A DNA stretch of 52,495 nucleotides from the NCBI GenBank assembly GCA_028879995.1, contig GCA_028879995.1_4895.1. One strand, 5' to 3'. Both the position numbers and the translations under genes were made by a program. The stretch comes from a phage. A model generated the notes under the pieces. That model was not told the origin of the DNA and did not search any database. It saw nothing but the letters and a program-made list of their open reading frames with translations. Positions 1,732-50,797 of this stretch are shown in pieces. Within the stretch, counting starts at the first letter, position 1. Every line of letters begins with the position of its first letter.

Positions 1732-1732
1732 A

Positions 1733-3295
1733 ATGTCGATAACCCCAAGCAGCACGCCGAACGTCGGATACCAGCGTCCTGAGCTGACTAAGAACGCTGG
1801 TAAGTACCGAATGATTAAGGACTGCATCGAGGGTCAGGAAGCTGTTAAAGCACGCGGTGATTTCTACTTGCCCCGTCCTGACCCTACGAACTGCACAGAA
1901 GAAAACATGATGCGGTATAATTCGTACCTGCGTCGCGCTGTGTTCTACAACGTACTGCAGCGAACTCTTTCGGGTATGACTGGCCTGGTATTCCAGCAGC
2001 AGCCTGAGATGCTAATGCCTGACGATATGGAAGTGCTGAAAGTAAATATCGACGGTGCAGGCATTGGTGCTATTCAGCAAATGCGTAAGTGCTTCAAGTC
2101 TGTTCTGGCTTTTGGTCGAGCAGGTCTGTTGACTGACTTCCCTAAAGCACGTATCGGTGAGTTTGGCGAGTCCATTGGCTTTACCCGTAAAGAGCTGATG
2201 GACGGAGATGTACAGCCGACAGTAACGCTGTATATGCCATGGCAGATTATAAACTGGCGAGAAGAGTATCGCAACGGTAAAGTGATGCTCACTCAAGTTG
2301 TCATTTGCGAACAGATACCGGGTGTTACTGATGGCTTTCAGCAAGACTACACACCCGTGTGGCGTCACCTTTACCTGGATGAAGAAGGCAATTGCAACCA
2401 GTCTTTGTGGGTCAATAAGGGCGACAAGAACGCGCAGAACGTCTCCGGTGGTGCGTTGTATGTCACGCAAGAAAATGTTGTCTTACGCGACTCCAATGGC
2501 TTACCGTTGAAGTTTATTCCGTTCCAGTTTATTGGTTCTGAAACAAACAGCGCTGAGATTGACCCTCCGCCGATGTACGACTTAGCTGTGCTTAATATTG
2601 CACACTACCGTAACTCTGCTGACTACGAAGAGTCATGCTTCGTAACAGGTCAACCCACAGTATGGGCGTCTGGTCTTACTGAGGCATGGGTTGAAGATGT
2701 TCTGAAGGGTGAACTGCGACTCGGTTCGTTTGGTGGTATTCCGCTGCCGGCTAACGCCGCTGTAGGTATTATCCAGACCAACCCTAACACCCAGCCGTTT
2801 GAAGCGATGAAGCAAAAAGAAGCACAGATGATTGCAATCGGTGCTCGTCTGATTCGTGAGAATGGTAAGGTAGAACGACGCGAAGTTGAGATTAAGAATG
2901 AAGCTGCATCTGAAGCTTCGCTTATCGTAACTGTTGCGCAGAACGTTGAAGCTGCTTATCGTAAAGCAATCGAATGGTGTGGCCTGTTCTACGGACACCC
3001 TAAAGAAGAAATTACGATTAACCTCAGCTACAACTTCATCTATAGCCAGTTGACTTATCAAGAACGTCAGCAACTGGTTAACGAATGGATTGCCGGTGCT
3101 ATCACGTTTAGTGAGATGCGTAGCAATCTTAAACAGGCTGGCATTGCTAAGCTCACCGACGAAGAAGCCAAGAAGCTAATTGATGAAGAGCTGGCTGAAC
3201 GCGATGCGCGTGAGGTAGCAAAAGAAGCAGAAAAGAACGCTCAAGCAGCTAAGAACAGCGATGGGCAGGAAAATAATCCAGAAAAAACTGAATAA
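1733..3295 (+). CDS. Portal protein
   Basis: 520 aa ORF immediately after terL (2-nt gap), acidic C-terminus; position and size. Confidence 0.7.
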   Translation: MSITPSSTPNVGYQRPELTKNAGKYRMIKDCIEGQEAVKARGDFYLPRPDPTNCTEENMMRYNSYLRRAVFYNVLQRTLSGMTGLVFQQQPEMLMPDDMEVLKVNIDGAGIGAIQQMRKCFKSVLAFGRAGLLTDFPKARIGEFGESIGFTRKELMDGDVQPTVTLYMPWQIINWREEYRNGKVMLTQVVICEQIPGVTDGFQQDYTPVWRHLYLDEEGNCNQSLWVNKGDKNAQNVSGGALYVTQENVVLRDSNGLPLKFIPFQFIGSETNSAEIDPPPMYDLAVLNIAHYRNSADYEESCFVTGQPTVWASGLTEAWVEDVLKGELRLGSFGGIPLPANAAVGIIQTNPNTQPFEAMKQKEAQMIAIGARLIRENGKVERREVEIKNEAASEASLIVTVAQNVEAAYRKAIEWCGLFYGHPKEEITINLSYNFIYSQLTYQERQQLVNEWIAGAITFSEMRSNLKQAGIAKLTDEEAKKLIDEELAERDAREVAKEAEKNAQAAKNSDGQENNPEKTE

Positions 3296-3300
3296 AGCTA

Positions 3301-3329
3301 TTTACTTTCGGTTTACCTGGCTATATAAT
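3301..3329 (+). promoter_or_regulatory. sigma70-like promoter TTTACT-N17-TATAAT (scaffold/capsid operon)
   Basis: Exact -35 TTTACT, 17-nt spacer, -10 TATAAT right after the portal stop. Confidence 0.55.
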
Positions 3330-3337
3330 CCTTCATG

Positions 3338-3410
3338 TCAACCGCGCAACAGCCGGCCACGAGAGTCTGCAGGGCTCAGTGGATTTCGGATGGCTGGCTG
3401 CGCGGTTTGA
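3338..3410 (+). other. Long imperfect hairpin in the 5' leader of the scaffold/capsid transcript
   Basis: Arms tcaaCCGCGCAacagcc (3338-3354) and ggctggctGCGCGGtttga (3392-3410) pair over about 11 bp with bulges around a 35-nt loop. Confidence 0.35.
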
Positions 3411-3472
3411 CCAAAACCTGTTCAGAGCCCACTTGAGTGGATTGAGCCCCTCTCATATAGGATTGTAAAATT

Positions 3473-4186
3473 ATGGCACTTAAAACAGTTGTAACTGACC
3501 TTACCGAAGTTGATGAAGGCTTCCGTGGCCTGTATATCAAAGACGAAGCATCTGGTGCATTCCGTTTGGACGTTGAACCAGACGAAAAAACGCTGAAAGA
3601 ATTAGAAGACCTGCGCAAAGAAAAACAGCGTATGGAACAGCACACCAAAAAGCTTCTCGAAGAAAAGAAAAAAGAAGCTGAACGTGCTCGCCTGGCTGAA
3701 GAAGAACGCGCACGTCGTGAGCGTGATGTTGAATCTCTTGAGCGCTCTATCAAAGAGAAACATCAGGCTGAACTGGAACAGTATACTAATCGTCAGGCCC
3801 AGCTGCAAGCTCAGCTGGAAGCGCAAATGGTTGATAACCTGGCGCTGAACCTGGCTAACCAACTCTCTGACACCCCGGCACTTATTATGCCACACATCAA
3901 GGCCCGACTGCGCGCTCAGGAAATTGATGGTAAGTGGCGTACTACTGTCGTGGATGTTATGGGTAACCCGACTGCTACAACGCCAGATGAACTAGTGGAA
4001 CATATGCGCGCTGATAAGCAGTTTGCACCTCTTGTGCGTGGAACCAAGGCTGGCGGTGGCGGTGCCAACGGCGGCGGAGCTAATCCTGGTGGGAACGGCG
4101 GTGGCGAACAGCACACTTTCGGAGGCGGGGACGACCGCATAGCACGTGCTCGTGCTAAAATCCAAAACACACAATGGGGCAAATAA
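3473..4186 (+). CDS. Scaffolding protein
   Basis: 237 aa, highly charged coiled-coil-like E/K/R/Q-rich body, Gly-rich C-terminus; lies between portal and capsid gene. Confidence 0.6.
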   Translation: MALKTVVTDLTEVDEGFRGLYIKDEASGAFRLDVEPDEKTLKELEDLRKEKQRMEQHTKKLLEEKKKEAERARLAEEERARRERDVESLERSIKEKHQAELEQYTNRQAQLQAQLEAQMVDNLALNLANQLSDTPALIMPHIKARLRAQEIDGKWRTTVVDVMGNPTATTPDELVEHMRADKQFAPLVRGTKAGGGGANGGGANPGGNGGGEQHTFGGGDDRIARARAKIQNTQWGK

Positions 4187-4189
4187 TTT

Positions 4190-5167
4190 ATGTCACTGTA
4201 TATTTTTAACGAACAAGTACGTTCTACCGCCACCGAACTGGTTGACCAGGACGTACAGAAGTTTAACGAAGCTTCTGCAGGTACCCTTATTCTGGGTAAC
4301 CAGTACGTAATCGGTGATTACGTTGAGCAGGCAATGTGGCAGCTGGTTGACGGTATCGCTACCCGCCGTAATGCTTACGCTGGTACCAACAAAGTTGATG
4401 CGCAGACTCTGGGCCAGATTCTGGACCGCTCTGTTAAAATCGACGGCCGTGTTGGTCCTCTGAACATTACCGGTACTATGATGCGTCGCATCGGTGCAGG
4501 TGATACTGAACCAGCAGCTGTTGTTGCTGCACAGGCATCTGCTGCAATGTTCCAGGATTACCTGAACACCACTGCTGCATGTCTGGTAGCTGCTATCGGC
4601 GCAAACGCTGATGTTGTTCTGGACGTAACTTCAGGCTCCGGTGCTGCTGCAAACATCACCATGCAGAACCTGAACAAAGTCAACGCGAAGATGGGTGACC
4701 GTTCTCAGCAGATTCGTGCGTACATCATGCACTCTACTGCGTTCCACTCCCTCATCGACCAGGCTATCAACAACACAGAACACCTGTTCCAGATTGGTGA
4801 CCTGAACGTGTACAAAGACTTCCTGGGTCGTCGTTATGTCGTTTCCGACATCCCGGCTCTGGTTGATGGCGCCGGTGCTTCCGCTAAGTACCGCACTCTT
4901 GGTCTGACCCCGTCTGCTGCAATAGTTCAGGTCGGCGGCCTGTACGACATGGTTACCTCCGAGCAAACCGGTGGTGAAAACATCCTGCGTCAGATGCAGG
5001 GTGAATACGACTTCAACGTGTCGCTGAAAGGCTACAGCTGGGTCGGTCACAAAGCTGGTCAGTCTCCGACTGATGAAGACCTGGCTGCTCAGGCGTCCTG
5101 GTCTAAAGTTGCGACTTCCAACAAAGACACCGCTGGTGTTATGTTGCTGGCTAAGTCTGCAATCTAA
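4190..5167 (+). CDS. Major capsid protein
   Basis: 325 aa ORF directly after scaffold, followed by a strong intrinsic terminator (5190-5217). Confidence 0.7.
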   Translation: MSLYIFNEQVRSTATELVDQDVQKFNEASAGTLILGNQYVIGDYVEQAMWQLVDGIATRRNAYAGTNKVDAQTLGQILDRSVKIDGRVGPLNITGTMMRRIGAGDTEPAAVVAAQASAAMFQDYLNTTAACLVAAIGANADVVLDVTSGSGAAANITMQNLNKVNAKMGDRSQQIRAYIMHSTAFHSLIDQAINNTEHLFQIGDLNVYKDFLGRRYVVSDIPALVDGAGASAKYRTLGLTPSAAIVQVGGLYDMVTSEQTGGENILRQMQGEYDFNVSLKGYSWVGHKAGQSPTDEDLAAQASWSKVATSNKDTAGVMLLAKSAI

Positions 5168-5272: not shown

Positions 5273-5773
5273 ATGGCATACACACTTGTTGTGGAAGACG
5301 GTTCAATTGTTCCGGGTGCTAACTCGTATGTTAGCACTGCAGAAGTTGATGAGTTTATCACTAACGAAGGTATTCTCATTCAACCAGGAACTGACCCGTA
5401 CTACCAAGCTGCCAAAGCAGCTATCCGACTTGATAACCAGTTTAACTGGCTAGGTCGTAAGGTCAGCAAAACACAGAGCATGGCTTGGCCCCGTACTGGC
5501 CTCGGTGCATGTAATGTTGACATCGCGGAGTCTGTAATTCCGCGAGAAGTTAAGCTGGCACAGCTTTATATGATGGCCAGTGTATTGAGCTACGACGGTG
5601 AAGAAGGTGTGCGTAGCGACCAGGCTTTGCGCCGTAAGAAAGTTGGTAACCTGGAGATTGAATACTTCGACTCCAAATCAGGCGTTACCGGTGCAACTGA
5701 CCTTTGGACGTCAGACGTCAGGGCCATGCTCAAGCACCTTGTGGGTGCATCACTGAGAGCGCGGAGAGTATAA
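5273..5773 (+). CDS. Head-tail adaptor/connector-like protein
   Basis: 166 aa, first gene after the capsid terminator/promoter, RBS GGAGG; start of a translationally coupled neck operon. Confidence 0.35.
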   Translation: MAYTLVVEDGSIVPGANSYVSTAEVDEFITNEGILIQPGTDPYYQAAKAAIRLDNQFNWLGRKVSKTQSMAWPRTGLGACNVDIAESVIPREVKLAQLYMMASVLSYDGEEGVRSDQALRRKKVGNLEIEYFDSKSGVTGATDLWTSDVRAMLKHLVGASLRARRV

Positions 5774-42300: not shown

Positions 42301-44809
42301 TATTCTCGGTCTGAAATACTTTAAGCCAGAAGGGATTCCCCAAGTCTTCAAAGATATGAAGCGCTGGGCTATCTTTGAGCTGACGTACGAAGACGAGACC
42401 CTCGAAGTTCAATCCAAACCTAAGAAACCTGCAAGAGCGCCATCAGGCCGTTCCTTCAGCACAACTGTGCCTGAAGAGTGGATGACTTTCGACGACGCCC
42501 TGACACGTTGTATCCGCAATCGTGAAATGAAGATTAAAGCTGTACAGGGTAACATCACCTTTGTGCCGGCTTTGATTGTTCCTCGCCAGTGGTACTTTGT
42601 TGACCTGGACAACCATGAAGATAATCCAGACATTGAAGCTACCCACAAAGCGATAATTGAGGGGACTCGTGGCGCTTATGCCGAGACGTCAATCTCTGGC
42701 AAAGGTCAACACATCGCAATCCCTTTACCATGGACTGCAGCAACATCTAAAGAGAAAGACGACCAGCTGGACATCAAAATCCAGAAGGCTGAGATGTTCC
42801 TGGTAATGACAGGCAATGTATTGAGTGAGTTCAATGCTAATCCTGTTTCAGCCCGTGAATGGCATGCAGCAATTGAGAAGTTCTTTCTTGAATCAAGCGC
42901 ACCTGACATTGATGTTGAGTTTGAGCAAGACGAAGACTGTGGCGAAGAGTACGACAAAGAGCTGTACGAACAGTTAGCCGACAATACTCGCTGGGCGCTT
43001 GAACATTATCTTAGCGACTATGCACCTGACGGTGTTGGTGTTAGTAACGACGGTTCCGAACGTTTAAGCCGCATACTCAAAGACTTGCTTCGTGTAACCC
43101 GTAACTACGAAGTTACACAACGCATCTTCATGGCCAGCAAAGCTGCAGCATATGAAGGTCGCAGACCAAGCCGACACAACTTGTCTGTTGACAAGTACCA
43201 TCAGTGGTTCAGCCGTGTAGGTAAGACTGTGCTGAAAGAGATGCAACGTGACGGCTTATTCGTTAAGACCAAGTTTGCTCTTGACATCAACAAAGAGTTA
43301 GCCAAGAATTCAGGTGTCTCCCTGGCTGAGAACGTTGAGTTCAAGGTCAACGACGATATTCTACCTTCTGATGTATTCGTCAGGACGGCACCGTCCGGGT
43401 TTAAACGGCTTATTGCTGAGATACAGGATAACATATCTCCTGCTAACAGGGTTAACGACTATGCCATCGGCACAGCTCTTAACATCCTGAGCAACTGCGC
43501 CGGTCGCAAGTATGTTTGTCCAGTAGGCGGTCATGCTAACTTCCTGGTAACCAACATCATTCTTGTGGGTGGTTCATCTATCGGTAAATCGCTGTATACC
43601 GAGTTGTTCCCACAAATCCAGGCAAGCGTACCAGACACATCGCCTATCAGCCTTAACCGTATCCCAAGGGAACAGACTTTTGCAACCAGGACGTTTGCTG
43701 AACTGATGTCCAACCCGTCATACCATTCAGTCCAGTTGTTCTATCCTGAATTTGGTCTGGCTTTAGGTTCAGGCTTACGCATGAATCCTAACAACCCGGA
43801 CAACTTTCAGAAAGCTCTGATGGACGCTTCAACCAAGCGTAAGGTTGGCGGTATTCTGACAGGTATCAAACGTGCTAATGCTGATAATGATGTCAAGACA
43901 GTAAGCGAACCATGTTACTCTATCCTGGGCGACTCCACTCAAGAGCTTATCCTTGACAACACCCGTAAGCAAGACTTCTCAAGTGGCTTTTTGCCCCGCT
44001 TCCTGTTCATCCCGAACTACGAACGAGCGGAGTTTGCAAAACCTGAGAAGGTAGGACGTCGCCAGCAGATTCGCCGTACTCAATTCTCCAAAGAACTGAT
44101 TGAGAAGCTGGAAGCAATCGCTTATGTGAATGCTATCCCGCCTAACGGTAAACTAAGGCACGACCCGATTCCTATTTACGACGAGTCGGACGATGATGAC
44201 TTCCTGTACGAGTACCAGTGCAATATTAATGACATGCGCCAGTATTACAGGGACAACGAAGTAGCATCTGCCTTTGTGGGCCGAATGGGTGAGTATGTTT
44301 TCAATATAGCAGCACTGATCGGGTTACTCGACAACTGGGATGCTCCTGTAATGACCAGGGACAACATCGAATGGGCTTACAAATACGTTCTTCGTTGTAT
44401 AACCGCCTGGGTCAATAACACAAGCAGAATAGTCGCACCTCCGACTACTAACGCCGAAGTAGTGGACGGCTTCCTCAAAGTCTACAGGGATATTTTGGCC
44501 CTTTACGCCAAAAGCGGATGGAACGGTATTGTTAAGCATTATCCTGAAGGTGTTGTGAGAAGTATCCGAGAAGAACACCTCCAGATGAATGGTTTAAGCA
44601 TATATGCTATTCGTCAATCTTTAAGCTGGTTTAAATCAAATTATGGTTTTAATATCACAGCTAATAATAAAGTCATTGACGGAATGCTACAGGACATGAT
44701 TGACCAGGACTATTTAGCGGTTCAAATATATAAGCCCACAAGAGGCCGAACTGCTAACATTTACTGCCTGACAGAGCGAGGATATGACACTGCTAAGAAA
44801 CTAAAATAA
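42275..44809 (+). CDS. Primase-polymerase / SF3-type helicase fusion protein
   Basis: N-terminal prim-pol-like motifs (FVDLDNHE, ETSISGKGQHI), later P-loop VGGSSIGKS; 844 aa. Confidence 0.6.
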   Translation: MTMTSQPSDILGLKYFKPEGIPQVFKDMKRWAIFELTYEDETLEVQSKPKKPARAPSGRSFSTTVPEEWMTFDDALTRCIRNREMKIKAVQGNITFVPALIVPRQWYFVDLDNHEDNPDIEATHKAIIEGTRGAYAETSISGKGQHIAIPLPWTAATSKEKDDQLDIKIQKAEMFLVMTGNVLSEFNANPVSAREWHAAIEKFFLESSAPDIDVEFEQDEDCGEEYDKELYEQLADNTRWALEHYLSDYAPDGVGVSNDGSERLSRILKDLLRVTRNYEVTQRIFMASKAAAYEGRRPSRHNLSVDKYHQWFSRVGKTVLKEMQRDGLFVKTKFALDINKELAKNSGVSLAENVEFKVNDDILPSDVFVRTAPSGFKRLIAEIQDNISPANRVNDYAIGTALNILSNCAGRKYVCPVGGHANFLVTNIILVGGSSIGKSLYTELFPQIQASVPDTSPISLNRIPREQTFATRTFAELMSNPSYHSVQLFYPEFGLALGSGLRMNPNNPDNFQKALMDASTKRKVGGILTGIKRANADNDVKTVSEPCYSILGDSTQELILDNTRKQDFSSGFLPRFLFIPNYERAEFAKPEKVGRRQQIRRTQFSKELIEKLEAIAYVNAIPPNGKLRHDPIPIYDESDDDDFLYEYQCNINDMRQYYRDNEVASAFVGRMGEYVFNIAALIGLLDNWDAPVMTRDNIEWAYKYVLRCITAWVNNTSRIVAPPTTNAEVVDGFLKVYRDILALYAKSGWNGIVKHYPEGVVRSIREEHLQMNGLSIYAIRQSLSWFKSNYGFNITANNKVIDGMLQDMIDQDYLAVQIYKPTRGRTANIYCLTERGYDTAKKLK

Positions 44810-44820
44810 GTAAGTAAATC

Positions 44821-44861
44821 AAGGGCTTGGGTAATTGTAAAAATCCTAAGCCCTTATTTTT
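44821..44861 (+). terminator. Intrinsic terminator after primase-helicase gene
   Basis: Stem AAGGGCTT...AAGCCCTT followed by ATTTTTT. Confidence 0.65.
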
Positions 44862-45209
44862 TAAGCTTATTTTACAAACTGATTAATATTTAAACTATAA
44901 TTAAATATATGGGCTATAAGAGTATGATTTTATTACTCTTTTACTAACCATAATATATGGGCTCCTTATAAAAGATTAAGGGGGTAAAAAAGGGGGTACA
45001 AGTACCGGATAAAAGGGGGGATATATTTATTTATTATTATTATTATTATTATATATTATTAATTATATTAGAAGTAATAAAAACAGCTACTTAGAGGCGT
45101 CTATATGTATGATCCGGTTTATCTCTTTATTAATATCAGAACCGGATGAAAAAAATTTACGCCGGCGAAAAATAATAAAAAACCGGACTGATAAATAAAT
45201 CTGTAGACG
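44862..45209. repeat. AT-rich repeat-dense noncoding region (candidate replication origin)
   Basis: Two ATATATGGGCT copies, purine-rich AAGGGGGTA repeats (44977-45021), (TTA)n microsatellite near 45027-45051, inverted repeat ATCCGGTT/AACCGGAT (45112-45148); no ORF. Confidence 0.45.
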
Positions 45210-45238
45210 TTTACACTATAAAAAAGATGTGTTACAAT
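45210..45238 (+). promoter_or_regulatory. sigma70-like promoter TTTACA-N17-TACAAT
   Basis: Upstream of the Hjc-like resolvase gene. Confidence 0.5.
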
Positions 45239-45292
45239 ATTTATCAATGTTGCTGATTACCAAAACTTTGAATTGTATACGAGGCTGAATAA

Positions 45293-45724
45293 ATGGTTAA
45301 TATAAGACAGAAAGGACAGAACTTTGAGCGCAAAATGGCTAAGAAGTTCAATAGCTCGTTCGGATTAACTGTTGAGCGCAATCTTCAACAGTCTATTAAT
45401 GGCGGGGATGACTTGCTGGGTGTACCGTTTTTCAGTGTTGAACTGAAGAAGCACAACACCAAGTCTATCGGAACATGGTGGAGACAGTGTGCGGCGTCGG
45501 CAAAGGCTCAGAACAAGATGCCAGTGCTTATATACGAACTACCAAGAAAACAGCCTACCGTGGTGATGAATAAGGCTGATGTGATTGACTGTTTTCCAAG
45601 TGGCACGACTTTTAACGAGGCATCGAACCGCCTCTTTGTGGGTTTAGTAGAATTAACATGGGAACAATTTTGCCGGGTCTACAACTATTACGTTGCGCCC
45701 GGCACTCAATATCACGTCAATTAA
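45293..45724 (+). CDS. Hjc-like Holliday junction resolvase (PD-(D/E)xK)
   Basis: N-terminal KGQNFERKMAKKF then GGDDLLG...FSVELKK, matching archaeal Hjc-type motif order; RBS GAGG; promoter 45210-45238. Confidence 0.5.
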   Translation: MVNIRQKGQNFERKMAKKFNSSFGLTVERNLQQSINGGDDLLGVPFFSVELKKHNTKSIGTWWRQCAASAKAQNKMPVLIYELPRKQPTVVMNKADVIDCFPSGTTFNEASNRLFVGLVELTWEQFCRVYNYYVAPGTQYHVN

Positions 45725-45906
45725 TCTTGTTTCAGCTCGTCACAAATGACACGCTGATTTTTGGCAGGTATAATACCAAGATTTAGTAAGGTGTATGGAC
45801 TATCGGCGACGCATTGTTCAACGGTAGTCCATTCAGGTTTGGATTCAACAATTTCGTAATTACAGTCGTGAGCTGCAATACATGTTGACAGTATTAAGCC
45901 AATCAC
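45721..45906 (-). CDS. Hypothetical small protein
   Basis: 61 aa; GTG start overlapping upstream stop (GTGA); convergent with resolvase gene. Confidence 0.3.
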   Translation of the reverse strand: MIGLILSTCIAAHDCNYEIVESKPEWTTVEQCVADSPYTLLNLGIIPAKNQRVICDELKQD

Positions 45907-46082
45907 AAGTAATCTCCATCAACCAGAAACTCAAACAATTGGTTGTAAACGTTGCAACCTTTAGCGAAAGAGCTTTCAGCAGGTTTACCGTCGCGGACAA
46001 TCATCATATACTCACCGCCATGGATGTCCACCCAGTATTGCATGCCACCTTTGACCGGATTACGTTGCAGAAATTTAAACAT
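45903..46082 (-). CDS. Hypothetical small protein (59 aa, below the ORF-track cutoff)
   Basis: ATG 46082 with RBS AGGAGT, TAATG coupling; read by eye as MFKFLQRNPVKGG...FLVDGDYL. Confidence 0.3.
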   Translation of the reverse strand: MFKFLQRNPVKGGMQYWVDIHGGEYMMIVRDGKPAESSFAKGCNVYNQLFEFLVDGDYL

Positions 46083-46327
46083 TATTTACTCCTGATTCCA
46101 AGTTTATTCAATAACCAAATTGTCATGTCAACCCATGTTAACGGTACAGTTTTCGGGGGTTGATAATCCCAGCAGCTTGCAGTTCTTTGTATTTCTGCTT
46201 GGCGCCGCTCCGCTTCGCGTAATACCGCATCGTCAGAAGTGCCGGCAGAAAAAAGATCGGTAACACCAGATAAATCGCGTTGATTAACACGTCGAGCAAT
46301 GTCATATAAATCATCCTTAGAAAACAT
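46082..46327 (-). CDS. Hypothetical small protein
   Basis: 81 aa; ATG 46327. Confidence 0.35.
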   Translation of the reverse strand: MFSKDDLYDIARRVNQRDLSGVTDLFSAGTSDDAVLREAERRQAEIQRTASCWDYQPPKTVPLTWVDMTIWLLNKLGIRSK

Positions 46328-46503
46328 AAGCCAATACCATAAAAATTATCAGAAAGATCCCAACCAGCTTCCTCATAGCCCGACCTTCAGCATATGCAGG
46401 ATTCACAACAGAATACTCAACAACATGTTTACAGCGGACCATAAGGCCTCCACTTGTGGGTTAATTCAATCATGAGGACTTTTGGCAAATCCTCATTGTT
46501 GAA

Positions 46504-46704
46504 TCACTCCATCATTACCTGAACTATTATTATACACTCTTTATTGAAGCGGGTAAACACCTTTCCTCCATTTGTGCGTTTAGCCCCAGATTTTAGAGCT
46601 GACTGGCACCAGACATGCCACTCCTCAACTGTCAAGAATTTTTGTTCAGCTTTGGGTGGCAATCCATTGGCAAGGTCTACCGTAGTAAATTTGACTAGTG
46701 GCAT
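46504..46704 (-). CDS. Hypothetical small protein
   Basis: 66 aa; ATG 46704 overlapping upstream stop; contains a promoter-like site 46529-46557. Confidence 0.3.
   Translation of the reverse strand: MPLVKFTTVDLANGLPPKAEQKFLTVEEWHVWCQSALKSGAKRTNGGKVFTRFNKECIIIVQVMME
46529..46557 (-). promoter_or_regulatory. sigma70-like promoter (minus) TTTACC-N17-TATAAT inside small ORF 46504-46704
   Basis: Internal promoter-like site. Confidence 0.4.
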
Positions 46705-47093
46705 CACTTGACCTCAAATTTTGACTCGTCATATTCCGGATCAGTCACGTCCCGGGTAGCACAATTTTTGATTGCCTCCCAGTAACGTTGGGCATCATCA
46801 CCATCGACATAAACTGTCCAGTGGCCGTAACCACCTTCAAATCTGTCCCAGGCTTGTTCCCAGACTTTGCCATCTTCCAGCTTGTACCAAGTTGGACGAC
46901 TGTCAAACTCGCGGATTGGATGGTACCCCATCAAAGGATTCATCAGGTCAATAATGTCTTCCCGACTAATCTCCTGGTTCTCCCACAACACCGTCATGAA
47001 TTGCTCAAACTTGAAGGCGTTTGGCAGAACTTTGATGACTTCACCATCACGATATACGGTATAGGTGCCATCTTCGCATTTTGCACTGTACAT
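46704..47093 (-). CDS. Hypothetical acidic Trp-rich protein
   Basis: ATG 47093 preceded by conserved leader and hairpin cassette; 129 aa. Confidence 0.4.
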   Translation of the reverse strand: MYSAKCEDGTYTVYRDGEVIKVLPNAFKFEQFMTVLWENQEISREDIIDLMNPLMGYHPIREFDSRPTWYKLEDGKVWEQAWDRFEGGYGHWTVYVDGDDAQRYWEAIKNCATRDVTDPEYDESKFEVK

Positions 47094-47162
47094 GTTTCTC
47101 TCTCTTGTTGTGAATAATTTCAATCATGAACTATCACAATTTTGGATAGTTCATTGTTGAAA
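47094..47162 (-). promoter_or_regulatory. Conserved leader plus upstream hairpin cassette, copy A
   Basis: Perfect 8-bp hairpin GAACTATC/GATAGTTC (47128-47152) abutting a leader whose 16-nt core is identical at 47109-47124 and 47773-47788. Confidence 0.5.
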
Positions 47163-47336
47163 CTATGCTAACTTTGTTGCGATCTGAATTGTCAGCCTGA
47201 AATCTTCCATCAAGTTATCAAACTCTTTGGAACCACCAACAGCATCAGATATTTGATCTTTCACAATTTGGGCATTTGATTCCAGTAATTCAATCAGGTG
47301 CGCCAATTCGTCTTCAGTCAATTTCAGATCTTTCAT
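47163..47336 (-). CDS. Small acidic helical protein, paralog family member 3 (MKDLKLT...)
   Basis: ATG 47336 (ATGA overlap with upstream stop); 57 aa; N-terminus MKDLKLTEDE shared with two other small ORFs. Confidence 0.4.
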   Translation of the reverse strand: MKDLKLTEDELAHLIELLESNAQIVKDQISDAVGGSKEFDNLMEDFRLTIQIATKLA

Positions 47337-47591
47337 AATGCATCCACCCAAGCCATAACTTTTGCCAGTCTTACAACGTCTTCATGGTCTCGCTCGCCAT
47401 CAGAAAATTCGCTGGCGATGATACCCATAATTGACGCCAGATTCATGTTGATGATGTATGAGTGTTCCCGCACTTCATCAATTCCTGAATCTATCACCAA
47501 TTCCGCAAATTCCTGCGAACCTTCATCCCATTCAGCCCAATACTGCTCAGCATAAAAGTCCAGTTCTTTTTTTCATCTCAATATCAGTCAT
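47333..47591 (-). pseudogene. Small acidic protein gene interrupted at an A7 homopolymer (frameshift)
   Basis: ATG 47591 with RBS GAGGAG gives MTDIEMKK then stop; with A6 instead of A7 (plus 47567-47573) the frame stays open to TGA 47333-47335. Confidence 0.35.
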
Positions 47592-47596
47592 TTTGA

Positions 47597-47755
47597 TTAC
47601 TCCTCAGAACCTGAAAATTTGTCGTCAATGGCTTCAACAATATAATCAAGAGTTGAAGTGTGAGAACTATCAGAAAAAGTGCCCATCTTCTCTAACTCAA
47701 TCATCATATCCCGCAAGGCCATCGCCTGGTCTTTGGTCAGTTTGATTTTAAGCAT
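47597..47755 (-). CDS. Small acidic helical protein, paralog family member 2 (MLKIKLT...)
   Basis: ATG 47755 preceded by conserved leader/hairpin cassette; 52 aa. Confidence 0.4.
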   Translation of the reverse strand: MLKIKLTKDQAMALRDMMIELEKMGTFSDSSHTSTLDYIVEAIDDKFSGSEE

Positions 47756-47819
47756 GTTTCTCTCCTGTTGATTGTGAATAATTTCAATTGATGGCACTAC
47801 TTGAGTGCCATCTCAAAAA
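47756..47819 (-). promoter_or_regulatory. Conserved leader plus upstream hairpin cassette, copy B
   Basis: Perfect 9-bp hairpin GATGGCACT/AGTGCCATC (47790-47812) abutting the same conserved leader. Confidence 0.5.
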
Positions 47820-48386
47820 TTACTCAGTTTCTTGTTCTTCAATTTCAGGTTTTTCTTCAGTCTTAGGTTTTTCGCCTGTTACTGATTTGCCCTCAGTCAC
47901 TTTACCAGATTTTACATCATTACGGTAATAGGACATATAGGATTGGACAACACGTTTTGCCCTAATATCATCCGCTTCCATCCCACAGGCTTTCATGGCA
48001 TCAGCCAGCGCCAATTTGGAATCTTCTTTGTCCATCAAATTGTAATCCTTGAATACTGCATAGCAGGTATCTTTGGTTGACGGACCGGATGAAGTTTTGC
48101 GGGTGCCACCTGCAGATGCACGTGATGCCGCAACTTTGACCTCTTCAACTTCCAGTTGGTTAAGCTCATCAAACAAGGCTTTCACCAGCACTTCTTTTGA
48201 GTCTTTGACACTTACAGAACTTTCATCATTAAGGGACTTGATCATCTTAATGATTTGGTTATTGGCAAAGTACTGCAGGCTATCCATCTGCACTACAATA
48301 GTCCCAAGACTTTCAGTAGTCAGACCAGATTTTACAGACTCGACAGAAAAGGCGGAAGTCAGGTAAACGTAGTTAGTAGCAGTCAT
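47820..48386 (-). CDS. Hypothetical protein
   Basis: 188 aa, Lys/Glu-rich C-terminal tail; ATG 48386. Confidence 0.45.
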   Translation of the reverse strand: MTATNYVYLTSAFSVESVKSGLTTESLGTIVVQMDSLQYFANNQIIKMIKSLNDESSVSVKDSKEVLVKALFDELNQLEVEEVKVAASRASAGGTRKTSSGPSTKDTCYAVFKDYNLMDKEDSKLALADAMKACGMEADDIRAKRVVQSYMSYYRNDVKSGKVTEGKSVTGEKPKTEEKPEIEEQETE

Positions 48387-48481
48387 TTTGATGTATCCTC
48401 GTCAATAGAATTTTGGTAAGCGCCAATCCCTGGCAAGTAAGTCCAAACATGACAACTTTTGTCAAGCTGTCATGATTGAAA

Positions 48482-48661
48482 TCACTTCAATTTGTTAAGT
48501 ATTTTGGTCAATAGCTCAACTCTTTCTTCCTGGTCAGTAGGGTCAAAGTTTTCAATTGACTCCTTCCAGTCCTCCAGCAGTTCCTTTTCATTAAATATTG
48601 AAATGTCAAGAAATTCAACCAATAACTCAACTTCTTTTTTAGTCAATTTCAAATCTTTCAT
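48482..48661 (-). CDS. Small acidic helical protein, paralog family member 1 (MKDLKLT..., 59 aa, below the ORF-track cutoff)
   Basis: ATG 48661 with RBS AGAGGG; read by eye as MKDLKLTKKEVELLVEFLDISIFNEKELLEDWKESIENFDPTDQEERVELLTKILNKLK. Confidence 0.4.
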   Translation of the reverse strand: MKDLKLTKKEVELLVEFLDISIFNEKELLEDWKESIENFDPTDQEERVELLTKILNKLK

Positions 48662-48675
48662 CTTGTATGACCCTC

Positions 48676-48825
48676 TTACCCTTGATATTTGACTACTTGC
48701 GACTGGATGAAATCAACACAATCTTCCACGTCCATTGATTCAAAATCTGGAACTGGTCCATTATTAATGTTGACACACCATAGCCCTTCATTACAATCAT
48801 ACCAAAGCGTATAGTTGTCTTTCAT
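48676..48825 (-). CDS. Hypothetical small protein (MKDNYTLWYDCNEG...)
   Basis: ATG 48825 with RBS AGGAGT; 49 aa with four Cys; first gene of the leftward small-gene cluster. Confidence 0.3.
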   Translation of the reverse strand: MKDNYTLWYDCNEGLWCVNINNGPVPDFESMDVEDCVDFIQSQVVKYQG

Positions 48826-49042
48826 AATAGTTACTCCTGCTATTAGTTTCCAGGCGTGGCTACTGCTTCCAATAGCCACTAGTTGAAACTATTACCAGCG
48901 TTACTATCAACAAGAAACATGTTACCAAATTGTTAAAGAGCGGTCTGGTACTATTCGACCAGGTAAAGTTGATGTTTGCGCATCTTGACGACACGCGCCA
49001 GACAAGACGCTTGACACATTCATCATTCGTCTTGATGTAATA

Positions 49043-49071
49043 ATTATAGGCCAGTCAATCAATGTTGTACA
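49043..49071 (-). promoter_or_regulatory. sigma70-like promoter (minus) TGTACA-N17-TATAAT for the leftward small-gene cluster
   Basis: Plus-strand attata 49043-49048 and tgtaca 49066-49071. Confidence 0.45.
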
Positions 49072-49182
49072 TAAAAGAATTGCAAGTTTATGCAAGTTTT
49101 TAGAAATGATAATCACTTGCGATTGAGAGTGGTTCTCGTATGCAATTGATATAGTTTCGCATGTAATTACTCACTTCAAAAT

Positions 49183-49240
49183 GGTCGGCAGGGGTTATAA
49201 TCACATAGGGGTGCCACTTAAAGGAGCCGGCGAAATTATT
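49183..49240. repeat. Approx. 58-nt GC-rich repeat unit R1
   Basis: Shares with R2 the pattern GGT.CGGC.GGGG-TAAT-C.CA-GGGGTGC.AC.T-AGGAGCC.GC.AAATT.TTTAT. Confidence 0.5.
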
Positions 49241-49358
49241 TATAAAAATATAATTTCAATCTGAATTATAGACGCTTTGTGTTATAACGGCCGAAGTAGT
49301 TCATACGGTAATTGTATCAATCGCAATAGTTACCAAAGTAATCATTTCAATTGAAATA

Positions 49359-49416
49359 GGTGCGGCGGGGGGTAATTTCGCAGGGGTGCTACCTGCCAGG
49401 AGCCAGCAAAATTTTT
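49359..49416. repeat. Approx. 58-nt GC-rich repeat unit R2
   Basis: Second copy about 176 bp downstream of R1, same orientation. Confidence 0.5.
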
Positions 49417-49566
49417 TATTTTTTGGTATTTTCTCCTTATCAGGACCAATCATCATCAGAGTAATACGGCAGGAGCTAACCTTTTGCTTAACACAATAAT
49501 AAGTGAAGCCCCTCTAAAAATTTTTTATATTTTTCGGAAATTGTGTAGACACTCACTAAAAAGTGG

Positions 49567-49595
49567 TGTACTTTCTCTCCTCCACGCGCTATCAT
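49567..49595 (+). promoter_or_regulatory. sigma70-like promoter TGTACT-N17-TATCAT for the rightward DHFR/kinase operon
   Basis: About 40 nt upstream of the first plus-strand gene. Confidence 0.4.
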
Positions 49596-49645
49596 TAATG
49601 TGAATCATCAAACGGCCTCACGGTCTCCTACTTGTGGGTAACATT

Positions 49646-50122
49646 ATGAAAATTGTTCAATTAGAGCCATATCCGCCTCAATTGGCTATCGTTTGTAGCG
49701 AAAAAGAGCACGAAGAGCTCCAAAAACTGATGGATTTGCCTGATTTTGGCAACTGGAATGACCGGGAAACGCGTAATGCATCTACTTTTACGTTCACTCG
49801 CGTTAACTATCCGTACCTGTTAATTGTCGTCGAACTGTATCACCCGGACGACCTGAAGTACAACACCATTTCCCACGAAGGCATTCACGTAATGTCATCG
49901 CTGATGAACTATGTAGGGCTTAAATACGACCCAGAAAACGATGAATGGTACGCATATCAGCATGATTTCATCGTAAATGCCATTTGTAAGGCCCATGACG
50001 AGTATATAGAGCGTCAAAAAACGCCAAAAACTAAGCCAAAAATCGAAACAGGTAACCATCCTGCAATACTGCCACAAGACGTAATGAACTCGCTTTTGAC
50101 TGACACTACTGGGGACTTTTAG
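49646..50122 (+). CDS. Hypothetical protein with HExxH motif (possible small zinc metallopeptidase-like protein)
   Basis: ATG 49646 (tool start GTG 49634); single HEGIH motif; first gene after plus promoter 49567-49595. Confidence 0.3.
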   Translation: MKIVQLEPYPPQLAIVCSEKEHEELQKLMDLPDFGNWNDRETRNASTFTFTRVNYPYLLIVVELYHPDDLKYNTISHEGIHVMSSLMNYVGLKYDPENDEWYAYQHDFIVNAICKAHDEYIERQKTPKTKPKIETGNHPAILPQDVMNSLLTDTTGDF

Positions 50123-50797
50123 GTGATTAATATAATCTTCGCAATGGGCCAAAATGGGGAATTCGGGTTATCTCCGGAGTTTATGAAGCATCAGGTTGAC
50201 TCGTGTAAGACCATGGATGAGGTTCGTGCGCTTCCTAAATCGGGTCTCCCTTGGAAATGTCCGTCAGATATGCTCTTTTTCAGGACTATGACTAATTCAA
50301 TTGCGTCAGAACCAGGCTATAATGCGTATCAGCAACTACGTGGACAGTTCCCAAATGACCAGTTGCGAAACATGATAGCAGATGTAACTGTAAAAATGGT
50401 CGGGCATAGTGTATTGTTAGCCGGTCGTAATACGTATATGACTATGAGTCTGCCTATGTCAGCCCACAGAATACTGCTGCCTGTATCTCGTCAGATTATG
50501 GCTTCAGAAGGCTACAATAATTTGGGTGAGATGGCAGCAGACCTTGAATCCAGAGGTACTGACGTCTGGATTGTAGGCGGTGCCGAGTTGATACTTTCGG
50601 CCCTTGAAGAGCATGCAAAAGACTTACTCCGTATCGACAACATGTTTATCAGTACAATCAAGCAATCAGGTCCAAGTGATATTTTAATGGATTGTAGCAA
50701 ATTAATGATGTACATTGATAGCGACTTCACTTATAATGATGAATATGTTGATAACAAACAAGTTCTGATACAACGGTACAGGAGTTTACACAAATGA
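50123..50797 (+). CDS. Dihydrofolate reductase-like protein
   Basis: GTG 50123; DHFR-like N-terminus MINIIFAMGQNGEFG, LPWKCPSDMLFFRTMT (compare E. coli MPWNLPADLAWFKRNT), IVGGAELILSAL; contains a long insertion. Confidence 0.55.
   Translation: MINIIFAMGQNGEFGLSPEFMKHQVDSCKTMDEVRALPKSGLPWKCPSDMLFFRTMTNSIASEPGYNAYQQLRGQFPNDQLRNMIADVTVKMVGHSVLLAGRNTYMTMSLPMSAHRILLPVSRQIMASEGYNNLGEMAADLESRGTDVWIVGGAELILSALEEHAKDLLRIDNMFISTIKQSGPSDILMDCSKLMMYIDSDFTYNDEYVDNKQVLIQRYRSLHK

What the first reader, a model, noticed from the sequence alone, without database searches (positions are those of the whole stretch)
47094..47819. Duplicated hairpin-plus-conserved-leader cassette in front of two small genes
Upstream of the ATG at 47093 and the ATG at 47755 the minus strand carries the same arrangement: a perfect 8-9 bp hairpin (GAACTATC/GATAGTTC and GATGGCACT/AGTGCCATC, different sequences), then a near-identical leader (core TGATTGAAATTATTCACAA with RBS GAGAGAAAC) and the start codon. 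Conservation of the leader but not the stem suggests selection for structure plus a fixed site, such as an RNA processing/stability element, regulator binding site or non-canonical promoter.
Basis: seen in the sequence. Interest (0 to 1): 0.55.

Follow-up and report, generated by a model that had tools for sequence, protein, structure and literature searches.

The report
Processing hairpins between phage early genes
The repeated "hairpin plus leader" belongs to five conserved two-tier RNA stem-loops between the small early genes of Salmonella phage BP63; they closely resemble the RNase III cutting sites of phage T7 early mRNA, a familiar kind of element not yet described in this phage group.

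Summary
The window is Salmonella phage BP63 (Rosemountvirus). The two hairpins and the near-identical leader exist where reported, and the repeat exceeds chance. The "conserved leader" core (GAUUGAAAUUAU) is the 3' arm of a lower stem that pairs with the end of the upstream gene, stop codon included. Each element has a lower stem of 7-11 bp, a small internal loop (usually CA/GA), an upper stem of 9-11 bp and a 4-9 nt loop. The minus-strand early operon holds five such elements, not two, and the rest of the genome holds none. Orthologues and further copies occur in Rosemountvirus, Loughboroughvirus, fHy-Eco03 and Erwinia phage SOI901. These show compensatory changes in both stems, and single-sided changes go to G.U, so the constraint acts on the sense RNA. 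No sigma-70 promoter, intrinsic terminator or Rfam family matches. The architecture, the intercistronic placement, the spacing to the next start codon and the base pairs at the E. coli RNase III proximal and distal boxes all match the five early RNase III sites of T7. Best reading: host RNase III processing signals (confidence about 0.55; cleavage is untested). The repeated leaders also mark gene-module deletion and insertion boundaries. This is a new member of a known kind, of moderate interest.

The parts
48840..48894 (-). Element E, in the 5' leader before gp13. Lower stem UAGUUUC/GAAACUA, 5x5 internal loop, 10-bp upper stem GUGGCUAUUG/CAGUAGCCAC, loop GAAG.
   Evidence: RNAfold -30.6 kcal/mol. 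Found by model R1, which was trained only on C and D (E=0.011). In relatives the upper stem shows G-C to A-U compensation. Base pairs 2-3 from the loop are U-A and U.G.
48435..48487 (-). Element D, between gp12 and gp11. Outer stem of 6 bp, then 5 bp, then an 11-bp upper stem, loop GACAA. The gp12 stop codon (48482-48484) lies in the 5' arm.
   Evidence: 65.3 bits. RNAalifold gives 21 pairs, 2 of them with compensatory changes.
48422..48434 (-). Small second hairpin (GCCA-GGGAU-UGGC) in the long leader between D and the gp11 start.
   Evidence: fold. Relatives carry a C-G to U-A compensatory change (alignment).
47775..47826 (-). 11-bp lower stem UGAGUAAUUUU/GAAAUUAUUCA, 3x4 internal loop, 9-bp upper stem, loop CAAGU. 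The gp11 stop codon (47820-47822) lies in the 5' arm.
   Evidence: -23.6 kcal/mol, z -4.7. RNAalifold gives 18 pairs, 5 with compensatory changes, including lower-stem pair 21-56. In Loughboroughviruses the upper stem is wholly replaced by CAGACCUCU/AGAGGUCUG.
47756..47789 (-). Leader of gp10: 3' arm of the lower stem, spacer, and Shine-Dalgarno GGAGAGAAAC before the ATG at 47755. This would be the 5' end of the downstream mRNA if cleavage occurs near 47787/47788.
   Evidence: Sequence. 36 nt at 92% identity to the gp07 leader. The cut position is inferred from T7 R1.1 geometry.
47597..47755 (-). gp10, 52 aa, unknown function (first gene of the gp10-gp09-gp08 module).
   Evidence: phrog_35350, unknown function.
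47114..47166 (-). 10-bp lower stem AUAGUUUCAA/UUGAAAUUAU, 2x2 internal loop CA/GA, 10-bp upper stem AUGAACUAUC/GAUAGUUCAU. The gp08 stop codon (47163-47165) lies in the 5' arm.
   Evidence: -22.7 kcal/mol, z -4.9. (37 bits, E=7e-7, not in the training set). RNAalifold gives 22 pairs, 5 with compensatory changes.
47094..47125 (-). Leader of gp07: internal-loop GA, 3' arm of the lower stem, spacer, and GAGAGAGAAAC before the ATG at 47093. Predicted cut near 47122/47123, giving a 29-nt leader.
   Evidence: The cut position is inferred.
46704..47093 (-). gp07, 129 aa, unknown function.
   Evidence: phrog_37772.
46462..46506 (-). Element C, between gp06 and gp05. 8-bp lower stem UGAUUCAA/UUGAAUUA, CA/GA internal loop, 10-bp upper stem AUGAGGAUUU/AAGUCCUCAU, loop GCCAA. 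The gp06 stop codon (46504-46506) lies in the 5' arm.
   Evidence: -25.2 kcal/mol. (75.5 bits). Its base pairs match the canonical RNase III distal and proximal boxes in register (with PMC1540722).
45721..49071 (-). Minus-strand operon of small early ORFan genes (gp13 to gp02) that carries all five elements. A candidate sigma-70 promoter lies at 49071-49043.
   Evidence: The homologous operon lies inside the 3.7-kb terminal repeat of fHy-Eco03.

Best explanation
The two cassettes are members of a family of five structured RNA elements in the polycistronic early transcript of phage BP63. That transcript runs on the minus strand from gp13 to gp02 and is presumably made by the host RNA polymerase. 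Each element is a quasi-continuous helix of about 20-22 bp, interrupted by a small internal loop, and it sits in an intercistronic gap or, for E, in the 5' leader. I propose that host RNase III recognises the upper stem and cuts on the 3' side at the internal loop, as at the T7 early sites R0.3 to R1.3. This would divide the transcript into five messages: gp13-gp12, gp11, gp10-gp09-gp08, gp07-gp06 and gp05-gp02. Each upstream message would keep a protective 3' hairpin. Each downstream message would start with the freed, unstructured AU-rich leader (UGAAAUUAUUCACAA...GGAGAGAAAC-AUG). Shown here: the structure, its conservation, covariation, strand specificity, placement, and agreement with RNase III sequence determinants. 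Inferred: transcription as one unit, cleavage itself, the exact cut positions, and any effect on stability or translation.
For: 1. Structure. All five elements fold into a lower stem, internal loop and upper stem. The sense strand folds 2.4-6 kcal/mol better than the antisense strand at A, B and C, and the antisense of D and E did not pass the -17 kcal/mol threshold of that scan.

2. Family. A covariance model built only from C and D finds B (E=7e-7) and E (E=0.011). It finds nothing else significant in 52.5 kb, even with filters off. It also finds non-orthologous copies in Erwinia phage SOI901 (E=3e-9) and in locus L007 (E=7e-8). More cassette types with the same CA/GA internal loop occur in relatives.

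3. Covariation. Compensatory changes occur at 5, 5 and 2 pairs at sites A, B and D, including the lower stem that contains the "leader". On the C+D alignment 96.7% of cells are paired, against 27-56% when partners are slid, and 0 of 500 shuffles reach the observed value. One-sided changes go almost only to G.U, which fits a sense-strand RNA.

4. Nothing else fits. No sigma-70 promoter, no intrinsic terminator and no Rfam family match at these sites.

5. T7 comparison. The five T7 early RNase III sites fold into the same two-tier form: upper stem 9-13 bp, internal loop, lower stem 4-9 bp. Both operons have one site in the 5' leader and four between cistrons. The distance from the predicted cut to the next AUG is 26-32 nt at 4 of 5 BP63 sites. 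In T7 it is 27-35 nt at 4 of 5 sites, using recalled site positions and the CDS starts. In T7 R0.5, as in BP63 A-D, the upstream stop codon lies in the 5' arm of the lower stem.

6. RNase III determinants (PMC1540722, PMC3867540): an 11-bp target helix; distal box UA/UG; proximal box positions pb1 G-C, pb2 AU/UA (G-C there blocks binding), pb3 AU, pb4 weak or mismatched. Element C matches every one in register. Counting base pairs from the loop, these are bp2 U-A, bp3 U.G, bp8 G-C, bp9 U-A, bp10 A-U and bp11 A.G. B and D match the proximal box. E matches the distal box plus pb1 and pb2. No BP63 element, and almost no relative's copy, has G-C at pb2; exceptions are listed under evidence against.

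7. Polymerase. The relative S144 encodes no RNA polymerase (PMC7432712).
Against: There are no transcript or cleavage data for this phage group; I found no paper combining these genera with RNA-seq or RNase III.

Element A fits least well. Its upper stem is 9 bp, its base pair next to the internal loop is G-C (a catalytic antideterminant if that position is pb4), it has no distal-box match, and model R1 did not find it.

D in BP63 has C-G at the presumed pb4, and pb3 of E is G-C. The register assignment rests on analogy with one substrate, T7 R1.1. Natural RNase III sites are degenerate, so matching them is weak evidence.

A few relatives' variants (E_L016, B_L007, C_L016, C_L015) put G-C at the second pair from the base in the RNAfold parse, either because the stem gains an extra basal pair or because the first A-U pair is lost.

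The internal loops are 2x2 here and about 4x5 in T7 (centroid folds). There is no sequence homology to the T7 sites. The T7 cleavage coordinates were recalled from Dunn & Studier 1983. I checked them only for consistency with the intergenic gaps, the folds, and the 28-nt product described in PMC1540722.
Confidence: 0.55

Rival explanations
1. The elements are passive intercistronic RNA hairpins that RNase III does not cut. They would act as barriers to 3'-5' exonucleases or as insulators between translation units, setting different stabilities and expression levels for segments of the operon. REP or malE-malF type stabiliser hairpins work this way.
For: The same structural and covariation evidence applies. 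Stable hairpins sit directly after stop codons. G-C or C-G at the presumed pb4 of A and D could allow binding without cleavage (PMC1540722).
Against: This does not explain three things: the conserved internal loop placed 9-11 bp below the terminal loop, the conserved G-C / A-U-type pairs at proximal-box positions across cassettes whose stems otherwise differ completely, or element E in the 5' leader, where no upstream cistron needs protection.
Confidence: 0.15
2. The elements are binding sites for a dedicated phage or host RNA-binding protein, such as a translational repressor, an antitermination factor or a phage endoribonuclease. Such a protein would read the conserved CA/GA internal loop and the lower stem.
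For: The internal loop and the lower-stem sequence are more conserved than pairing alone requires (consensus). The CA/GA loop recurs in cassettes with unrelated stems. The operon encodes about a dozen small proteins of unknown function.
Against: No RNA-binding or nuclease domain was detected in the operon proteins. A and E lack the CA/GA loop yet keep the same architecture. The terminal loops are not conserved, unlike boxB-type sites.
Confidence: 0.12
3. The elements are PeSL-like transcriptional cassettes. The hairpin would attenuate or terminate upstream transcription, and the conserved downstream sequence would be a promoter, possibly non-canonical, for the next gene.
For: The cassette layout resembles T4-type PeSLs: stop codon, hairpin, conserved stretch, Shine-Dalgarno, ATG. 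The cassettes lie at gene-module boundaries (PMC2839356).
Against: The scan found no sigma-70 promoter conserved between the copies and no U-tract terminator at the elements. The conserved core is only about 25-30 nt from the ATG, which leaves no room for a promoter plus a leader carrying the Shine-Dalgarno sequence. The core co-varies with its pairing partner, which indicates pairing rather than a DNA recognition sequence. S144 encodes no phage RNA polymerase (PMC7432712).
Confidence: 0.06
4. The elements act at the DNA level, as cruciforms or single-strand hairpins that serve as recombination or replication signals. The RNA structure would then be incidental.
For: Copies coincide with deletion and insertion junctions. 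AV127 lacks gp10-gp08 with the crossover in the shared leader. KE24 has a half hairpin at a junction. The region lies in a terminal repeat in fHy-Eco03.
Against: Single-sided substitutions go to G.U on the sense strand, which would be A.C mismatches on the other strand. The sense strand folds better. Recombination between any 36-nt repeat is an expected by-product and needs no dedicated signal.
Confidence: 0.04

Closest known systems
RNase III processing signals of the phage T7 early region (R0.3, R0.5, R1, R1.1, R1.3)
   Same: Both sets have five sites in an early polycistronic operon read by the host polymerase, one in the 5' leader and four between cistrons. Both are two-tier hairpins of about 20 bp with an internal loop below a 9-11 bp upper stem. 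Within each phage the lower stem and internal loop are conserved and the top is variable. Both have G-C then A-U/U-A pairs at the proximal box and UA/UG at the distal box. The next AUG lies about 26-35 nt past the cut. The upstream stop codon can lie in the lower stem (PMC1540722, PMC3867540).
   Different: There is no sequence homology, and the host phage is an unrelated myovirus. The internal loop is usually a 2x2 CA/GA rather than about 4x5 (centroid folds). Lower stems are longer and AU-rich. Cleavage is not demonstrated. Element A departs from the optimal box pattern.
PeSL (promoter-early stem-loop) cassettes of T4-type phages (PMC2839356, PMC4122927)
   Same: Both are repeated intergenic cassettes consisting of a stop codon, stem-loop, conserved stretch, Shine-Dalgarno and ATG. 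Both flank small ORFan early genes in a variable region. Recombination between copies deletes or inserts gene modules, as in AV127, SenM-1 and KE24.
   Different: PeSLs contain a strong sigma-70 promoter and a G/C-rich terminator hairpin. Here no promoter or terminator is detectable, and the conserved stretch is part of the RNA helix.
Intercistronic stabiliser hairpins in bacterial operons (REP-type, malE-malF) — comparison from general knowledge, not tested here
   Same: Both are stable stem-loops just after a stop codon within a polycistronic mRNA.
   Different: Those are simple GC-rich palindromes. They lack both a conserved internal loop at a fixed depth and a conserved paired leader. They are not placed in 5' leaders.

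Membership tests
E. coli-type RNase III processing signal (T7 R-site class) | Hairpin helix of about two A-form turns (about 20-22 bp including non-canonical pairs) | tested here: met
   Per RNAfold the two main helices hold 17 bp (E), 18 (C) and 20 (A, B); D has three helices totalling 22 bp. Counting the opposed internal-loop positions, the quasi-continuous helix is 20-24 positions long.
E. coli-type RNase III processing signal (T7 R-site class) | Internal loop or mismatches at the target site, separating an upper stem of about 11 bp from a lower stem (this gives single-strand cleavage) | tested here: met
   Upper stems are 9-11 bp. Internal loops are 2x2 (B, C), 1x1 in BP63 and 2x2 in most relatives (D), 3x4 (A) and 5x5 (E). 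T7 sites folded the same way give 9-13 bp upper stems above an internal loop.
E. coli-type RNase III processing signal (T7 R-site class) | Proximal box without antideterminants: pb2 A-U/U-A (never G-C/C-G), pb1 G-C, pb3 A-U, pb4 weak or mismatched (PMC1540722) | tested here: met
   B and C: pb1 G-C, pb2 U-A, pb3 A-U, pb4 A.G mismatch. D: the same pb1-3, but in BP63 pb4 is C-G, a catalytic antideterminant (A.G in most relatives). E: G-C, U-A, then G-C at pb3. F-type copies in relatives have A-U, A-U, G-C as in T7 R1.1. A is off by one: G-C, A-U, U-A, G-C from the base. No BP63 element and no T7-like F copy has G-C at pb2; four relatives' variants do in the RNAfold parse. The register is assigned by analogy with R1.1.
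E. coli-type RNase III processing signal (T7 R-site class) | Distal box UA/UG near the top of the upper stem | tested here: inconclusive
   The match is exact and in register in C and E (bp2 U-A, bp3 U.G, as in T7 R1.1). D has U-A/C-G, like T7 R0.5. B has U-A/A-U. A has no match.
E. coli-type RNase III processing signal (T7 R-site class) | Location in non-coding gaps of a polycistronic transcript | tested here: met
   All five elements lie in gaps between ORFs of one co-oriented gene string, and the genes between elements overlap or abut. That the string is a single transcript is inferred, not shown.
E. coli-type RNase III processing signal (T7 R-site class) | rnc-dependent cleavage in vivo or in vitro | not testable with these tools
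   I found no transcriptome or end-mapping data for Rosemountvirus or Loughboroughvirus.
PeSL cassette (T4-type phages) | Sigma-70-like early promoter (-35/-10) inside the cassette | tested here: not met
   The only promoter-like match is a 9/12 hit with its -10 hexamer after the ATG of copy B. It is absent from copy A.
PeSL cassette (T4-type phages) | Stem-loop that acts as a transcription terminator or attenuator | tested here: not met
   None of the four terminator-like sites in the scanned region 44800-50200 coincides with an element. The stems are AU-rich and no U-tract follows them.
PeSL cassette (T4-type phages) | Copies flank ORFans in a variable region, and recombination between copies shuffles modules | tested here: met
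   AV127 lacks gp10-gp08, with the junction inside the shared A/B leader. Relatives carry an extra gene flanked by an F-type and a C-type element. D-type upper stems are replaced by C-like ones in several phages.
Rho-independent terminator | G+C-rich stem followed directly by a U-tract | tested here: not met
   The 3' flanks are GAUUGAAA... after the upper stem and CACAA after the full helix.
Any Rfam family | Covariance-model match | tested here: not met
   Over 44800-50200 the best hits have E of 0.45 or more and lie far below gathering scores. None lies on the elements.

The most novel reading that the evidence does not exclude
The hairpin-plus-Shine-Dalgarno unit may be a portable linker cassette. 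It would supply an RNA-processing and translation-start signal to whatever ORFan follows it. Because it is repeated, it would also be the preferred crossover point for inserting, deleting and swapping early host-takeover genes among Rosemount- and Loughborough-type phages. That would be an RNA-processing-based analogue of the T4 PeSL system. A second possibility is that the conserved CA/GA internal loop is read by a dedicated phage protein rather than by RNase III.
Probability: 0.2. Interest if true: 0.6.

Novelty: new member of a known kind. Interest (0 to 1): 0.35.

Why it matters
If these are RNase III sites, a myovirus group unrelated to T7 has arrived at the same way of organising its first-expressed genes. 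A single host-made transcript would be cut into stable, separately translated messages. That would give clear predictions for early gene expression in Rosemountvirus and Loughboroughvirus, which are widely proposed for Salmonella and E. coli biocontrol. It would also predict dependence on host rnc. The family supplies a natural set of compact processing and insulator cassettes with built-in sequence variation. It also explains where early-gene modules are gained and lost in these genomes. It does not open a new category of mechanism.

Tried and rejected
- **Rfam:** an E-value scan of the region gave nothing relevant.
- **Promoter and terminator scans:** nothing at the elements.
- **Generic hairpin scans of the whole window:** RNALfold and a sliding RNAfold gave 582 and 326 hits, so they do not discriminate. 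Free energy alone does not single out the family.
- **Two-tier descriptor scan:** 17 hits, against 3-9 in 10 first-order Markov random sequences. A, B, C and E were among the strongest. D was missed because its lower stem is bulged.
- **MAFFT alignments of all five site types together:** these put the upper stems out of register, so RNAalifold recovered only the lower stem. I switched to per-site alignments and a model built from C and D.
- **Model R1:** it does not detect element A, even with filters off. A is assigned to the family by architecture, by the lower-stem sequence it shares with B, and by its position.
- **IMG/VR searches:** searching with the gp11 protein and with the flank pattern TTCAACAATGA-N-TCATGATTGAA recovered only the same phage group.
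- **Pfam and PHROGs on ten operon proteins:** only unknown-function families.
- **Literature:** no transcript mapping for these genera. The S144 paper reports only machine-predicted promoters, two of which fall on these hairpins.
- **Ideas considered and dropped:** N4-type hairpin promoters and a phage RNA polymerase promoter (the relative S144 encodes no RNA polymerase; in N4 only three hairpin promoters, near the genome end, are known — the latter from memory). RegA-type AU-rich operators (similarity to the SELEX consensus recalled from memory was only about 8 of 15).
Full report
**Identity and context.** The window is the genome of Salmonella phage BP63 (Rosemountvirus; KM366099 / NC_031250), circularly permuted and 100% identical over the stretches compared. 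The finding lies in a string of about a dozen small genes on the minus strand, gp13 to gp02 of the RefSeq annotation, roughly 48825 down to 45721. All have unknown function. Upstream lies a non-coding stretch of about 750 bp with a candidate sigma-70 promoter at 49071-49043. In the related phage fHy-Eco03 the homologous operon lies inside the 3.7-kb terminal direct repeat. The S144 authors found no phage RNA polymerase in that relative (PMC7432712). This looks like an early operon read by the host polymerase, but that is an inference.

**Checking the observation.**
- The 19-mer TGATTGAAATTATTCACAA occurs at 47108-47126, with a 2-mismatch copy at 47772-47790. Chance expectation is 0.05 copies, and 0 of 100 shuffles gave two.
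- An exact 17-mer repeat is reported independently (D10).
- The similarity spans 36 nt at 92% identity, from just after the upper stem to the ATG, and then stops.
- The downstream proteins, gp10 (52 aa) and gp07 (129 aa), are unrelated. This is therefore not a gene duplication.

**Revised anatomy.** The conserved "leader" core GAUUGAAAUUAU is the 3' arm of a second, lower stem. It pairs with the last bases of the upstream gene: AUAGUUUCAA at copy B and UGAGUAAUUUU at copy A. Each element has four parts:
- a lower stem of 7-11 bp;
- a small internal loop (2x2 CA/GA in B and C, 3x4 in A);
- an upper stem of 9-11 bp;
- a terminal loop of 4-9 nt.

Stretches of 81-110 nt centred on elements A-D fold at -22.7 to -31.3 kcal/mol, with z-scores of -3.7 to -4.9 against shuffles. 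There are five such elements in the operon, not two:

| Element | Window coordinates (minus strand) | Position |
|---|---|---|
| E | 48840-48894 | 5' leader, before gp13 |
| D | 48435-48487 | gp12 \| gp11 |
| A | 47775-47826 | gp11 \| gp10 |
| B | 47114-47166 | gp08 \| gp07 |
| C | 46462-46506 | gp06 \| gp05 |

At all four intercistronic sites the stop codon of the upstream gene lies inside the 5' arm of the lower stem. Genes between elements overlap or abut. The elements therefore divide the operon into gp13-gp12, gp11, gp10-gp09-gp08, gp07-gp06 and gp05-gp02.

**Is it a real family?** A covariance model built only from sites C and D and their orthologues finds B (37 bits, E=7e-7) and E (20 bits, E=0.011). 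It finds nothing else significant in the 52.5-kb genome, with default filters or with filters off. Element A is not detected by this narrow model. It shares the lower-stem sequence with B, the overall architecture and the type of position.

A simple two-tier descriptor scan gives 17 hits genome-wide, against 3-9 in random sequences. A, B, C and E are among the strongest, and all lie on the minus strand of this 2.4-kb stretch. Generic free-energy scans do not discriminate.

**Comparative evidence.** Sixty-two phage records carry homologous sequence. I fetched 22 loci spanning Rosemountvirus, Loughboroughvirus, fHy-Eco03, Erwinia phage SOI901 and IMG/VR contigs. Every orthologue folds into the same two-tier form.

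- **Site A:** 5 of 18 pairs show compensatory double changes. One is in the lower stem, where AAUUUU/GAAAUU becomes AAUAUC/GAUAUU, that is, inside the "leader". The whole upper stem is replaced by an unrelated complementary pair in Loughboroughviruses.
- **Site B:** 5 of 22 pairs show compensatory changes.
- **Site D:** 2 of 21 pairs show compensatory changes.
- **C+D alignment:** 96.7% of cells are paired, against 27-56% when partners are slid by 1-3 columns. No shuffle out of 500 reaches the observed pairing or covariation score.
- **Strand:** single-sided changes go almost exclusively to G.U. The sense strand folds better than the antisense. The constraint therefore acts on the transcript.
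- **Further copies:** relatives carry more cassette types at other gaps. They have unrelated stems but the same CA/GA internal loop, and often the same GGAGAGAAAC-AUG start region.

**What it is not.** There is no sigma-70 promoter in the cassette, no U-tract terminator and no Rfam match. The conserved core is 25-30 nt from the ATG and co-varies with its partner. That argues against a DNA recognition sequence.

**Comparison with T7.** I fetched T7 and folded the five early intergenic regions that hold R0.3, R0.5, R1, R1.1 and R1.3. The site positions 890, 1468, 3138, 5887 and 6448 are recalled from Dunn & Studier 1983. Each falls in an intergenic gap and on a hairpin.

The T7 sites have the same architecture: upper stem 9-13 bp, internal loop, lower stem 4-9 bp. 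Both operons have one site in the 5' leader and four between cistrons. In R0.5 the stop codon of gene 0.4 lies in the lower stem, as in BP63 A-D.

Nicholson's work defines the E. coli RNase III target as an 11-bp helix with these determinants (PMC3867540, PMC1540722):
- a distal box of UA/UG;
- proximal box position pb1 = G-C;
- pb2 = A-U or U-A (G-C there blocks binding);
- pb3 = A-U;
- pb4 = weak or mismatched (G-C there blocks catalysis).

Reading T7 R1.1 from the loop, these are bp2 U-A, bp3 U.G, bp8 G-C, bp9 A-U, bp10 A-U and bp11 C.U, with the cut 2 nt 3' of pb4. The BP63 elements compare as follows:

| Element | Agreement with the determinants |
|---|---|
| C | Full match in register: bp2 U-A, bp3 U.G, bp8 G-C, bp9 U-A, bp10 A-U, bp11 A.G |
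| B | Same proximal box as C; distal box U-A/A-U |
| D | Same pb1-3 as C; pb4 is C-G in BP63 (A.G in most relatives); distal box U-A/C-G, as in T7 R0.5 |
| E | Canonical distal box plus pb1 and pb2; pb3 is G-C |
| F-type (relatives) | A-U, A-U, G-C, as in T7 |
| A | Poorest fit: 9-bp upper stem, G-C at the base, no distal-box match |

No BP63 element has G-C at pb2. By the same geometry the cuts would fall near 48852, 48445, 47787, 47122 and 46468. That leaves leaders of 27, 59, 32, 29 and 26 nt. In T7 the corresponding distances are 35, 28, 33, 120 and 27 nt.

**Mechanism proposed.** Host RNase III cuts the early polycistronic RNA on the 3' side of each internal loop. Upstream messages keep a 3' hairpin. 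Downstream messages begin with the freed AU-rich leader and a strong Shine-Dalgarno sequence. Structure, conservation, strand and placement are shown here. Cleavage and its consequences are inferred. I put this at about 0.55. The rivals are uncleaved stabiliser or insulator hairpins (0.15), a site for a dedicated RNA-binding protein that reads the CA/GA loop (0.12), a PeSL-like promoter/terminator cassette (0.06), and a DNA-level signal (0.04).

**Recombination side-effect.** The repeated leaders coincide with module boundaries.
- Phage AV127 lacks gp10-gp08. Its A-type hairpin is joined to the gp07 start, with the crossover inside GGAGAGA(G)AAAC.
- SenM-1, SE13 and the Loughboroughviruses carry an extra gene flanked by an F-type and a C-type element.
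- Several phages carry a C-like upper stem at site D.
- KE24 has half a D hairpin at a junction.

This resembles the role of PeSL cassettes in T4-type phages (PMC2839356). However, the defining PeSL promoter and terminator are absent here.

**Novelty.** I found no description of these elements. There is no Rfam family. The S144 paper lists only machine-predicted promoters, two of which fall on these hairpins. No transcript mapping exists for these genera in the library searched. The kind of element is well known from T7, so I file it as a new member of a known kind. It is of moderate interest and needs end mapping in rnc+ and rnc- hosts.

Noticed in passing
window 47567-47573: The minus strand has a run of 7 A inside gp09. 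The GenBank BP63 record and 12 relatives have 6 A. In the window gp09 is therefore frameshifted: it stops after 14 codons, and its tail is the 55-aa ORF at 47333-47500. This was the only difference in 6.3 kb compared with NC_031250. It may be a sequencing variant or a slippery homopolymer.
   Followed up: partly
window about 44960-45090: The window is 58 nt longer than the 52,437-nt GenBank record. The record's ends map to an AT-rich stretch with ATT repeats and G5/C5 runs, which may be a terminal or poorly assembled region.
   Followed up: no
window 48482-48661, 47597-47755, 47163-47336: gp12 and gp08 (MKDLKLTK.../MKDLKLTE...) look like paralogues: a 63-nt DNA repeat at 73% identity links their 5' ends (D1). 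gp10 (MLKIKLTK...) looks similar at its N-terminus by eye only. KE24 carries a gp12-like copy at the gp08 position.
   Followed up: partly
L018 (phage AV127) 2150-2265; L009 (KE24) 2625-2695; L017 (vB_SenM-1) 3281-3328: Natural variants have breakpoints at the elements. AV127 lacks gp10-gp08 through a crossover in the shared A/B leader. KE24 has a half D-type hairpin fused at CAAAAGTT to the gp09 tail. SenM-1, SE13 and the Loughboroughviruses have an extra gene preceded by a sixth cassette type (F) with a CA/GA loop and GGAGAGAAACATG.
   Followed up: partly
window 49257-49272, minus strand: A third copy of the 12-mer GATTGAAATTAT sits 3 nt after a TATAAT hexamer in the upstream non-coding region. 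The repeat overlaps the 5' arm of an AT-rich inverted repeat (GAAATTAT-N10-ATAATTTC). Its relation to the hairpin family is unknown.
   Followed up: no
window 44811-44863: A GC-stem hairpin (AAGGGCTTGGG...CCTAAGCCCTT) has a T-run on its 3' side and an AT-rich flank on the other side. It lies just after the primase gene and looks like a terminator, possibly working on both strands. It is the weak R1 hit at E=0.12.
   Followed up: no
window 48422-48434, minus strand: A small hairpin (GCCA-GGGAU-UGGC) lies in the long leader between element D and the gp11 start. Relatives carry a compensatory C-G to U-A change.
   Followed up: partly
window 46529-46557, minus strand: A good sigma-70-like match (TTTACC-17-TATAAT, 10/12) lies inside the end of gp06, just upstream of element C. 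It is not conserved in relatives that have a different upstream gene.
   Followed up: partly
L023 (fHy-Eco03) 1232-4930; L022 (S144) 1508-1548 and 3164-3182: fHy-Eco03 annotates the whole homologous operon as part of a 3.7-kb terminal direct repeat. In S144, two machine-predicted "promoters" coincide with D-type and F-type hairpins.
   Followed up: partly
L025 (T7) 1030-1080 and 5485-5500 compared with window 47114-47135: T7 sites and BP63 elements share short strings on the 3' side (AUGAUUGA in R1.1; AUUCAC in R0.3) and AGUGAU around the upstream stop codon (R0.5). This could be convergence on the same constraints or chance in AU-rich sequence.
   Followed up: no
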